The notes under the pieces are model-generated. The model made no database searches and was not told the DNA's origin. It was given only the letters and a program-made list of their open reading frames with translations. Positions 13,540 to 14,194 of a stretch of DNA of 64,000 bases are shown here, one piece after another. Numbering within the stretch: the stretch's first letter is position 1; every line of letters starts with the position of its first letter. Made by a program: the position numbers and the translations under genes. This stretch comes from Escherichia coli (GTDB taxonomy: Bacteria; Pseudomonadota; Gammaproteobacteria; Enterobacterales; Enterobacteriaceae), in NCBI RefSeq assembly GCF_048403405.1, contig NZ_CP183129.1. The stretch is one strand, 5' to 3'.

Positions 13540-13806
13540 ATGGATATTAACAACAAAGCCCGCATTCATTGGGCATGCCGCCGTGGTATGCGCGAACTCG
13601 ATATTTCAATCATGCCGTTTTTCGAACATGAGTACGACAGCTTAAGCGATGACGAAAAACGCATCTTTATTCGTCTGCTGGAATGTGACGATCCGGACCT
13701 GTTTAACTGGCTGATGAATCACGGTAAACCGGCCGATGCAGAACTGGAAATGATGGTCCGACTCATCCAGACACGGAACCGGGAACGTGGTCCTGTGGCA
13801 ATCTGA
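13540..13806 (+). CDS. sdhE: FAD assembly factor SdhE (also called antitoxin CptB)
   Basis: 88 aa, [21 protein letters not shown]... with the conserved RGxxE motif. Confidence 0.92.
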
Positions 13807-14194
13807 TTTGCGCGTCTCCTGGCGCGCACAGTGGCTTTCCTTGCTGATTCATGGGCTGGTTGCCGCTGTTATTTTACTCATGCCCTGGCCGCTCAGTTAC
13901 ACCCCGTTATGGATGGTGTTACTTTCGCTGGTGGTGTTTGATTGCGTTCGCAGCCAGCGACGCATTAATGCTCGCCAGGGGGAAATTCGCCTGTTGATGG
14001 ACGGGCGTTTGCGCTGGCAAGGGCAGGAGTGGAGCATCGTCAAAGCGCCGTGGATGATTAAGAGCGGCATGATGCTGCGTTTACGTTCTGACAGCGGTAA
14101 ACGGCAACATTTATGGCTGGCAGCCGACAGCATGGACGAAGCCGAATGGCGGGATTTACGGCGGATTTTGTTGCAACAAGAGACGCAAAGATAA
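13787..14194 (+). CDS. ygfX: Inner membrane protein YgfX (CptA toxin-like)
   Basis: 135 aa with two hydrophobic segments; its start overlaps the sdhE 3' end by 20 nt. Confidence 0.88.

What the first reader, a model, noticed from the sequence alone, without database searches (positions are those of the whole stretch)
13540..14194. Overlapping sdhE-ygfX pair (flavinylation factor plus small membrane protein with toxin-like behaviour)
The ygfX start lies 20 nt inside the sdhE 3' end, enforcing co-expression. From established knowledge this pair has been described as the CptB/CptA toxin-antitoxin-like module, where YgfX affects the cell-shape cytoskeleton and SdhE also flavinylates succinate dehydrogenase. 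The dual role makes it a non-standard module.
Basis: partly seen in the sequence, partly recalled or inferred. Interest (0 to 1): 0.35.

Follow-up and report, generated by a model that had tools for sequence, protein, structure and literature searches.

The report
Known overlapping sdhE-ygfX gene pair
This is the well-known E. coli sdhE-ygfX two-gene operon (a flavin-attachment helper for succinate dehydrogenase plus a small inner-membrane partner); the 20-base overlap is real and strongly conserved, but the locus looks like an ordinary core housekeeping gene pair, not a mobile toxin-antitoxin module.

Summary
sdhE runs 13540-13806 (+, 88 aa, ATG) and ygfX 13787-14194 (+, 135 aa, GTG). They share 20 nt, with ygfX in the +1 frame, exactly as RefSeq annotates them.

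The overlap is not a start-codon artefact:
- The GTG and the 20-nt overlap are in the same place in all 80 species loci scanned (nearly all named Enterobacteriaceae).
- Overlaps of 14-38 nt, as called, recur in Pantoea, Providencia, Tatumella and four unnamed metagenomic homologues.
- YgfX residues 2-11, which lie upstream of the only alternative start, are conserved in homologues only 20-35% identical.
- Variation at sdhE synonymous sites collapses over the last 36 nt (13771-13806).

The identities are secure. SdhE matches Pfam Sdh5, an NCBIfam equivalog and PDB 1X6I/6C12/6B58, and carries the RGxxE motif. YgfX matches PF07254. Its model shows two membrane helices and a cytoplasmic domain that may be PH-like.

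The CptB/CptA toxin-antitoxin label exists in the literature and in TADB. It was not reproduced in Serratia or Shewanella. The locus is single-copy core genome (5425 of 5426 E. coli genomes), has fixed neighbours and is essentially absent from plasmids and phages.

Verdict: already known, low interest.

The parts
13540..13806 (+). sdhE (ygfY/cptB), 88 aa, FAD assembly factor for SdhA/FrdA
   Evidence: ORF. Pfam Sdh5 5.1e-26. NCBIfam equivalog NF008130 1.1e-59. PDB 1x6i 8e-59, 6c12 and 6b58. RefSeq annotation.
13582..13596 (+). Codons for the RGxxE motif (R15-G16-M17-R18-E19) of SdhE
   Evidence: Motif located. Its role in contacting SdhA/FrdA is taken from PMC8621075 (discussion).
13787..14194 (+). 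ygfX (cptA), 135 aa, GTG start, inner-membrane protein
   Evidence: ORF. Pfam PF07254 1e-49 covering residues 2-131. RefSeq 'protein YgfX'. No solved relative.
13787..13806 (+). 20-nt dual-coding overlap. The sdhE frame encodes ...R-G-P-V-A-I-stop; the ygfX frame (+1) encodes M(GTG)-V-L-W-Q-S-D
   Evidence: Same position in all 81 loci compared, with one variable base, 13794 T/A, which gives YgfX L3 or Q3. Overlaps of 14-38 nt, as called, in more distant homologues.
13771..13806 (+). 36-nt block of suppressed synonymous variation at the 3' end of sdhE: 16 nt upstream of the GTG (inferred ygfX ribosome-binding/initiation region with GGAA/GGGA) plus the overlap
   Evidence: Third-position entropy 0.17 against 1.14 bits, p = 1.2e-7. 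Best anti-SD pairing upstream of the GTG is -4.0 kcal/mol, against -4.3 for sdhE's own start.
13772..13797 (+). Candidate small mRNA hairpin that would pair the GGAA and the GUG start (inference only)
   Evidence: MFE structure. Hairpin dG is -6.6 to -9.2 kcal/mol in most species variants but weakened by the CCT>CCA variant. The regional z-score is not significant (-0.69), and no covariation is possible because the block is nearly invariant.
13820..13972 (+). YgfX residues 12-62: two-helix transmembrane hairpin with a short PWPLSY turn
   Evidence: AF2 model, pLDDT 93.5, helices 12-31 and 36-62. Kyte-Doolittle windows 14-36 and 36-54. There are no K/R in the turn and 5 K/R just after TM2, which implies N-in/C-in topology.
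13979..14188 (+). YgfX residues 65-134: cytoplasmic beta-sheet domain capped by a C-terminal helix, possibly PH-like
13298..13539 (.). Divergent ygfZ<->sdhE intergenic region, presumed to hold the operon promoter (not located)
   Evidence: Gene layout. The sigma-70 consensus scan found no site in 13200-14400.
14198..14227 (.). Stable hairpin in the 39-nt gap between the convergent ygfX and fldB stops. The T-rich tail is on the fldB (-) side only.
   Evidence: Inverted repeat TGACGGCAAAGC/GCTAAGCCGTCA. dG -19 kcal/mol, z = -3.3, 0 of 200 shuffles fold as well.

Best explanation
This is the chromosomal sdhE-ygfX operon of E. coli, a vertically inherited core-genome gene pair.

SdhE is the small cytoplasmic assembly factor that binds SdhA and FrdA through its RGxxE face and promotes covalent FAD attachment. 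That function comes from the literature and solved complexes.

YgfX is an inner-membrane protein. It has a short N-terminal strand, a two-helix membrane hairpin and a cytoplasmic, possibly PH-like domain. Its physiological role is unresolved. The most likely reading (inference) is that it is a membrane-anchored partner or modulator of SdhE. In this reading it is not a dedicated toxin, and the growth and shape defects reported on overexpression are a dosage effect.

The 20-nt overlap works as follows. The ygfX initiation region (a weak GGAA/GGGA Shine-Dalgarno plus GTG) lies inside the last 36 nt of sdhE. ygfX is therefore transcribed with sdhE. Its translation is probably tied to ribosomes finishing sdhE, either by reinitiation or by unfolding a local hairpin. 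This would keep YgfX synthesis low and proportional to SdhE.

Shown here: the overlap, its conservation, the synonymous-site constraint, the gene identities and the genomic behaviour. Inferred: translational coupling and the partner role of YgfX.
For: - Identity. The window is 100% identical to RefSeq E. coli, with Pfam, NCBIfam and PDB matches.
- Core, single-copy status: the locus is present in 5425 of 5426 complete E. coli genomes, median one copy.
- Linkage and geometry: sdhE lies immediately upstream on the same strand, with the GTG 20 nt inside it, in all 80 species loci scanned. The same arrangement, with overlaps of 14-38 nt as called, occurs in Pantoea, Providencia, Tatumella and four unnamed metagenomic homologues with 20-39% YgfX identity. 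The flanks are usually ygfZ upstream and fldB downstream, where the contig extends that far.
- Start codon and embedded initiation region: conserved YgfX N-terminus and collapse of synonymous sites over 13771-13806.
- Not mobile: 12 of 72,556 plasmid records match, most of them chromosome-sized or very large records (0.7-5.4 Mb). Only 2 phage-collection records match: a 691-kb Salmonella genome contig and an unannotated 1.5-kb fragment. No PADLOC defence model matches.
[quoted passage not shown] The Serratia group could not detect a TA phenotype (PMC3985639). There was no toxin or antitoxin behaviour in Shewanella (PMC8621075). An E. coli ygfY mutant loses SDH activity and growth on succinate (PMC5293155).
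- Structure: a confident YgfX model with a TM hairpin and a soluble domain.
Against: - The original E. coli study (Masuda et al. 2012, cited in PMC8621075, PMC3985639 and PMC11205521; I could not read it directly) reported that YgfX overexpression blocks growth, gives lemon-shaped cells, and is counteracted by YgfY. An Acinetobacter homologue pair was also reported as TA-like (PMC8132199).
- Nothing here measures translation, so coupling is inferred from geometry and conservation only.
- The candidate hairpin has no covariation support, and one common variant weakens it.
- A linked SdhE-(GGGGS)6-YgfX AlphaFold run gave pTM 0.49, so no confident interface. This is inconclusive: the paired alignment was shallow and the run used a monomer model.
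Confidence: 0.72

Rival explanations
1. The pair is a bona fide type IV toxin-antitoxin system (CptB/CptA). YgfX is a membrane-bound toxin that blocks FtsZ and MreB polymerisation. SdhE moonlights as its antitoxin. The overlap ensures that the toxin is never made without the antitoxin.
For: This is the published E. coli description (Masuda 2012, as cited in PMC8621075, PMC3985639 and PMC11205521). An Acinetobacter CptBA-like report exists (PMC8132199). The Pfam family is named 'Cpta_toxin'. TADB 3.0 lists the pair (PMC11205521 tables). The upstream-small-gene, downstream-partner bicistron with overlap resembles TA architecture.
Against: - The phenotype was not reproduced in Serratia (PMC3985639) or Shewanella, where co-expression made growth worse (PMC8621075).
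- An SdhE-YgfX interaction is reported in Serratia, which contradicts the non-interacting definition of type IV (PMC3985639, PMC5042078).
- The locus is single-copy core genome with fixed synteny and is essentially absent from plasmids and phages.
- SdhE is conserved across alpha-, beta- and gamma-proteobacteria and eukaryotes (PMC5042078), whereas YgfX forms only 135 clusters at 50% identity.
- An intact ygfX without an adjacent sdhE is retained in the reduced genome of Ca. Symbiodolus clandestinus.
[quoted passage not shown] The caveat is that such deletions may also disturb ygfX translation.
Confidence: 0.15
2. The overlap is an annotation artefact. YgfX really starts at the in-frame TTG 13808, 2 nt after the sdhE stop, so the genes abut instead of overlapping.
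For: TTG 13808 is in frame and lies immediately after the TGA, a classic coupling distance. GTG 13787 has only a weak Shine-Dalgarno match. The Shewanella orthologues are described as separated by 37 bp (PMC8621075).
Against: - Residues 2-7 (VLWQSD) are conserved as amino acids even in homologues of 20-35% identity.
- The TTG codon itself is not conserved: it is TTA, CTG, CTT, CTC or ATA in other genera, and third-position entropy at that codon is 1.59 bits.
- Anti-SD pairing before the TTG is weaker, -2.2 kcal/mol.
- More distant homologues start with ATG-TGG placed 14-19 nt inside sdhE.
Confidence: 0.05
3. The overlap is a programmed +1 frameshift site that produces an SdhE-YgfX fusion protein of about 217 aa.
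For: Proteins of 166-217 aa carrying both Pfam domains exist in metagenome and assembly databases.
Against: These fusions are singletons or near-singletons (one or two member sequences each). Their frame changes or deletions sit at different positions along sdhE. This is the pattern expected of assembly errors or sporadic mutations. No slippery or hungry-codon motif was identified. All 80 scanned loci keep the sdhE stop codon in place.
Confidence: 0.01

Closest known systems
E. coli K-12 sdhE (ygfY, cptB) - ygfX (cptA) operon
   Same: It is the same locus. The window is 95-100% identical to this region in 5425 complete E. coli genomes and is annotated identically, including the 20-nt overlap.
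   Different: Nothing substantive. This strain's YgfX differs from other E. coli alleles by one or two residues.
Serratia sp. ATCC 39006 sdhEygfX operon (McNeil/Fineran work)
   Same: Orthologous bicistron. It is co-transcribed, SdhE flavinylates SDH and FRD, and YgfX is a membrane protein that interacts with SdhE (PMC5042078).
   Different: No TA phenotype was found there (PMC3985639). FlhDC/RsmA regulation and the prodigiosin phenotypes are Serratia-specific and were not examined here.
Type IV toxin-antitoxin systems (CbtA/CbeA = YeeV/YeeU)
   Same: Both have a small bicistron and a toxin reported to target FtsZ and MreB (PMC8621075, PMC3985639).
   Different: In E. coli TA surveys CbtA-type toxins fall into several groups with many partners (6 toxin groups, 17 partner groups), whereas Cpta_toxin forms a single group prevalent in all sequence types (PMC10790755). 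sdhE-ygfX is single-copy core genome with conserved synteny and a housekeeping 'antitoxin'.
Eukaryotic/mitochondrial SDHAF2 (Sdh5)
   Same: Same Pfam family as SdhE (PF03937), with the same RGxxE motif and the same function of covalent flavinylation of the SDH flavoprotein (PMC5042078, PMC8621075).
   Different: It has no YgfX partner, and it is a nuclear gene.
Membrane-tethered PH-like domains
   Different: There is no sequence-level match to any PH or bPH Pfam family. Foldseek was not significant. An extra N-terminal strand precedes the TM hairpin.

Membership tests
SdhE/Sdh5/SDHAF2 FAD assembly factor | Sequence membership: Pfam PF03937 above the gathering score, and the NCBIfam equivalog | tested here: met
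   90.8 bits against a cutoff of 27. NF008130 scores 198.4 bits against a cutoff of 120.
SdhE/Sdh5/SDHAF2 FAD assembly factor | Conserved RGxxE motif | tested here: met
   RGMRE at residues 15-19.
SdhE/Sdh5/SDHAF2 FAD assembly factor | Same protein as the solved SdhE, SdhA-SdhE and FrdA-SdhE structures | tested here: met
   1x6i 8e-59, 6c12 3.8e-58, 6b58 2.3e-51.
SdhE/Sdh5/SDHAF2 FAD assembly factor | Required for covalent flavinylation of SdhA/FrdA | not testable with these tools
   Literature only: PMC5042078, and PMC5293155 (the E. coli ygfY mutant loses SDH activity).
YgfX/CptA family (PF07254) | Sequence membership over the full length | tested here: met
   168.5 bits against a cutoff of 27.3, residues 2-131 on profile positions 1-132.
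YgfX/CptA family (PF07254) | Two N-terminal transmembrane helices plus a cytoplasmic C-terminal domain | tested here: met
   AF2 pLDDT 93.5. Hydropathy and the positive-inside rule agree. This is a prediction, not an experiment.
Type IV toxin-antitoxin system (CptB/CptA) | Adjacent co-oriented toxin and antitoxin genes in one operon | tested here: met
   Co-transcription in Serratia and Shewanella (PMC5042078, PMC8621075).
Type IV toxin-antitoxin system (CptB/CptA) | The toxin arrests growth and the cognate antitoxin neutralises it | not testable with these tools
   The literature conflicts: positive in E. coli (Masuda 2012, via citations) and negative in Serratia (PMC3985639) and Shewanella (PMC8621075).
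Type IV toxin-antitoxin system (CptB/CptA) | Toxin and antitoxin do not interact directly; the antitoxin acts on the target | tested here: inconclusive
   The linked-chain AF2 run gave pTM 0.49, so no confident interface. The Serratia literature reports an interaction (PMC3985639, PMC5042078), which would argue against type IV.
Type IV toxin-antitoxin system (CptB/CptA) | Typical TA genomic behaviour: patchy, multi-copy, associated with mobile elements. This is a habit of the class, not a strict definition. | tested here: not met
   Present in 5425 of 5426 genomes at median one copy. Fixed synteny across genera. Essentially absent from plasmids and phages.
Translationally linked overlapping gene pair | The downstream start codon and its initiation region are embedded in the upstream ORF and conserved | tested here: met
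Translationally linked overlapping gene pair | Downstream translation depends on upstream translation | not testable with these tools
   This needs reporter fusions or ribosome profiling.
PH-like fold (for the YgfX C-terminal domain) | Seven-stranded beta-sandwich capped by a C-terminal helix, with significant structural similarity to PH domains | tested here: inconclusive

The most novel reading that the evidence does not exclude
YgfX is not a toxin. It is a membrane-anchored receptor, with a possibly PH-like domain, that docks SdhE at the inner membrane. There it would couple covalent flavinylation of SdhA/FrdA to assembly onto the membrane subunits. The deeply conserved ygfX initiation region embedded in the sdhE 3' end would be a coupling device that fixes a low YgfX:SdhE ratio. 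The reported 'toxin' phenotype would then be what happens when that ratio is broken. One practical corollary follows: standard sdhE deletions that remove 13771-13786 also alter YgfX synthesis, so some published sdhE and ygfX phenotypes may be confounded.
Probability: 0.3. Interest if true: 0.4.

Novelty: already known. Interest (0 to 1): 0.12.

Why it matters
There is little to discover at the level of 'what is this'. The genes, the operon and the TA controversy are all published.

The modest value added here is comparative:
- The overlap, together with a 36-nt block of synonymous-site constraint, is conserved in position across 80 species loci and in form (a 14-38 nt overlap) in more distant Enterobacterales-type homologues. 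This fixes the ygfX start and argues for linked translation.
- The locus behaves like vertically inherited housekeeping DNA, unlike a selfish TA cassette. This bears on how TA databases and Pfam label it ('Cpta_toxin').
- The YgfX soluble domain may be PH-like, which suggests a binding or adaptor role.
- The overlap means that sdhE knockouts can be polar on ygfX, which is relevant when interpreting the mutant phenotypes.

Tried and rejected
- The primary papers could not be read: Masuda 2012 (PMC3334289), McNeil 2012 (PMC3365757) and McNeil 2013 (DOI) are not held. Their content is cited only through papers that quote them.
It worked only with a closer alignment, A4. The 80-locus scan therefore covers almost only Enterobacteriaceae. 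Wider reach came from 8 encoding-contig look-ups.
- A linked-chain AlphaFold run of SdhE-(GGGGS)6-YgfX with a 19-row paired alignment gave pTM 0.49, with both halves folded but no confident relative placement. It neither supports nor refutes an interaction. No coordinates or PAE were available.
- Foldseek vs PDB found nothing significant.
- Rfam (E <= 1) found nothing in 13200-14400.
- The sigma-70 scan found no promoter-like site. Its only terminator-like hit lies inside ygfX and is within chance expectation.
- PADLOC found no hit.
- The programmed-frameshift fusion idea was rejected after reading the fusion sequences.
- The RNA hairpin at 13772-13797 is kept only as a weak inference: there is no covariation and the z-score is not significant.

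Full report
**1. What is in the sequence**

Two same-strand ORFs sit at the stated coordinates.
- sdhE: 13540-13806, ATG start, 88 aa, TGA stop.
- ygfX: 13787-14194, GTG start, 135 aa, TAA stop.
- They share 20 nt, GTGGTCCTGTGGCAATCTGA, and ygfX is offset +1 from the sdhE frame.

The window is E. coli chromosome. A 901-bp query spanning the pair is 100% identical to several RefSeq genomes. It is found at 95% identity or better in 5425 of 5426 complete E. coli genomes, at a median of one copy. PGAP annotates 'FAD assembly factor SdhE' and 'protein YgfX' with exactly this overlap. The neighbours are trhA, ygfZ (divergent), fldB (convergent), xerD, dsbC and recJ.

**2. Is the overlap real or a start-codon convention?**

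In the ygfX frame the upstream stop is at 13751, and GTG 13787 is the only canonical start before the sdhE stop. An in-frame TTG at 13808 would abolish the overlap. Four results favour the GTG.

- *Conserved N-terminus.* In a 41-sequence alignment of YgfX homologues down to 20% identity, the N-terminal MVxWQxxLRxS is conserved. Translation must therefore begin upstream of W4.
- *Fixed position.* In 80 species loci from a genome-wide scan, nearly all named Enterobacteriaceae, sdhE is always directly upstream. The GTG sits at the identical position 20 nt inside it. In 29 loci the frame is open further upstream, but those extra ATG/TTG codons are at variable positions.
- *Synonymous-site collapse.* sdhE third-codon-position entropy across those genomes averages 1.14 bits for codons 2-77 and 0.17 bits for codons 78-88. 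Mann-Whitney p = 1.2e-7, and no other 11-codon window falls below 0.95 bits. The constrained block, 13771-13806, covers the 20-nt overlap. There the sdhE third positions are ygfX second positions, so dual coding explains the constraint. The block also covers 16 nt upstream of the GTG, which dual coding cannot explain. Those 16 nt contain the GGAA/GGGA purine runs, which fits an embedded ribosome-binding region.
- *The TTG is not conserved.* That codon is not conserved between genera.

**3. Linkage beyond the first scan**

Eight look-ups of divergent YgfX proteins (20-39% identity to the query) gave the following.
- Pantoea, Providencia, Tatumella and four unnamed metagenomic contigs all have an Sdh5-family gene directly upstream. 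It overlaps the ygfX start by 14-38 nt as called.
- Where the contigs extend far enough, ygfZ is usually found divergently upstream and a flavodoxin gene convergently downstream (names).
- In the most divergent cases YgfX begins ATG-TGG, placed 14-19 nt inside sdhE.
- The single exception is the insect endosymbiont Ca. Symbiodolus clandestinus. There an intact ygfX lies between ygfZ and nadB with no sdhE in the locus.

**4. What the two proteins are**

*SdhE.* It matches Pfam Sdh5 (5e-26) and the NCBIfam SdhE equivalog (1e-59). It is essentially the sequence of PDB 1X6I/1X6J, 6C12 (SdhA-SdhE entry) and 6B58 (FrdA-SdhE entry). It carries RGMRE at residues 15-19.

*YgfX.* It matches PF07254 'Cpta_toxin' (1e-49) and has no solved relative.
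- The family is small. An exhaustive phmmer search of 1.84 billion cluster representatives found only 135 clusters at E <= 1e-3.
- An AlphaFold2 model built on 41 homologues is confident (pLDDT 93.5, pTM 0.74). It shows strand 2-8, helices 12-31 and 36-62, six strands between 65 and 112, and helix 118-134.
- Hydropathy and charge distribution support an N-in/C-in two-helix membrane hairpin.
- Foldseek was not significant, and no PH or bPH Pfam model matches. 'PH-like' is therefore only a tentative fold assignment.

**5. How it most likely works**

*Shown here:* ygfX's start and upstream initiation region lie inside the 3' end of sdhE and are under strong purifying selection.

[quoted passage not shown] SdhE is needed for SDH and FRD flavinylation, and an E. 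coli ygfY mutant loses SDH activity and growth on succinate (PMC5293155).

*Inferred:* ygfX translation is linked to sdhE translation, either by ribosomes terminating 17 nt downstream of the GTG or by ribosomal unfolding of a small hairpin. The candidate hairpin spans 13772-13797 and pairs the GGAA and the GUG. It has dG of -6.6 to -9.2 kcal/mol in most variants but no covariation support, and one common variant weakens it.

I commit to the reading that YgfX is a membrane-anchored partner or modulator of SdhE and not a dedicated toxin. My confidence in the overall picture is about 0.7. A linked-chain AlphaFold test of an SdhE-YgfX interface was inconclusive, with pTM 0.49.

**6. The toxin-antitoxin question**

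The pair was published as the type IV CptB/CptA system (Masuda 2012, as cited in PMC8621075, PMC3985639 and PMC11205521). It is listed in TADB 3.0 (PMC11205521) and in Pfam's family name. An Acinetobacter homologue pair was also reported as TA-like (PMC8132199).

Evidence against:
- In Shewanella, neither toxicity, rescue, an FtsZ/MreB interaction nor a ΔygfX suppression of the ΔygfY defect was seen (PMC8621075).
- My comparative results add that the locus behaves unlike TA cassettes. It is core and single-copy in E. coli, which agrees with PMC10790755, where CptA_toxin forms a single group highly prevalent (>=80%) in every sequence type studied. It is syntenic across genera.
- It is found in only 12 of 72,556 plasmid records, most of them 0.7-5.4 Mb and so more like chromosomes than plasmids. 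Only 2 phage-collection records match: a 691-kb Salmonella genome contig and an unannotated 1.5-kb fragment. It is absent from PADLOC.
- The 'antitoxin' is a housekeeping factor with a far wider phylogenetic range than YgfX (PMC5042078).
- One reduced genome keeps ygfX without an adjacent sdhE.

I give the bona fide TA reading about 0.15.

**7. Other readings rejected**

- Database proteins of 166-217 aa carrying both domains have frame changes or deletions at different places and are singletons or near-singletons. They reflect errors or sporadic mutations, not programmed frameshifting.
- No Rfam family matches in the region.
- No sigma-70-like promoter was detected, so the operon promoter in the ygfZ-sdhE gap remains unlocated.

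**8. Verdict**

The locus is already known. Interest is low, at 0.12.

The useful residue is fourfold:
- the strength and depth of conservation of the embedded initiation region;
- the housekeeping-like genomics that argue against the TA label;
- the tentative PH-like fold of YgfX;
- the practical warning that sdhE deletions are likely to perturb ygfX. The common Keio design retains only the last 21 nt of a deleted gene, according to my own knowledge of Baba et al. 2006. Here that would keep the GTG but remove its upstream region.

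Noticed in passing
L085/L086 2501-2944 (Ca. Symbiodolus clandestinus, GCA_038960095.1 and GCA_047692335.1): An intact ygfX homologue (147 aa as called) sits between ygfZ and nadB. No sdhE lies in the 82-nt gap or anywhere else in the 5.4-kb locus. The genome is a reduced endosymbiont genome (contig 1.5 Mb). If sdhE is absent genome-wide, this argues against YgfX being a toxin that needs SdhE.
   Followed up: partly
P0003, P0004, P0007, P0012, P0021 (database proteins matching window 13540-14194): These are SdhE-YgfX 'fusion' proteins of 166-217 aa in ENA and Logan assemblies. Each has a different frameshift or deletion point and only one or two member sequences. They are most likely assembly errors or sporadic mutants, not a programmed product.
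   Followed up: yes
window 14198-14227: A strong hairpin (12-nt arms, dG -19 kcal/mol, z -3.3) fills the 39-nt gap between the convergent ygfX and fldB stop codons. A T-rich tail follows it only on the fldB strand. It probably serves as the fldB terminator and as a 3' stabiliser or weak terminator for sdhE-ygfX.
   Followed up: partly
L052 about 2754-3020 (Enterobacter sp. EA-1, CP025776.1): Read in the expected frame, the 5' third of sdhE contains stop codons. tblastn matches only from residue 27 or so onward. ygfX downstream is intact. This is either a sequencing frameshift or a natural sdhE pseudogene next to an intact ygfX.
   Followed up: no
L008-L011, L013-L015, L019-L020, L026, L029-L031, L033, L041, L053, L056, L058-L060, L062-L063, L065-L068, L073-L074, L078: In 29 of the 81 loci compared, the ygfX frame stays open upstream of the conserved GTG, with ATG at -71 or -86 or TTG at -62. 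This probably explains the over-long YgfX database entries (147-154 aa) and is an annotation trap.
   Followed up: partly
window 11581-16498 and loci L082-L092: The neighbourhood is conserved across Enterobacterales-type genomes: trhA, ygfZ (divergent), sdhE-ygfX, fldB (convergent), xerD-dsbC-recJ. Several neighbours are linked to flavin or Fe-S cofactors: ygfZ, flavodoxin FldB, and nadB in Symbiodolus.
   Followed up: no
plasmid-collection hits H11-H20: Most 'plasmid' records carrying sdhE-ygfX are 0.7-5.4 Mb, more like chromosomes or chromosome fragments than plasmids. Two Enterobacter hormaechei records of 51 and 59 kb also carry the pair and could be chromosomal fragments or real captures.
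   Followed up: no
window 13540-13806 (SdhE residues 34-83): There is a weak sub-threshold Pfam match of SdhE to YbjN, 'putative bacterial sensory transduction regulator' (E = 8e-4, 20.1 bits against a cutoff of 22). It is probably helical-bundle noise.
   Followed up: no
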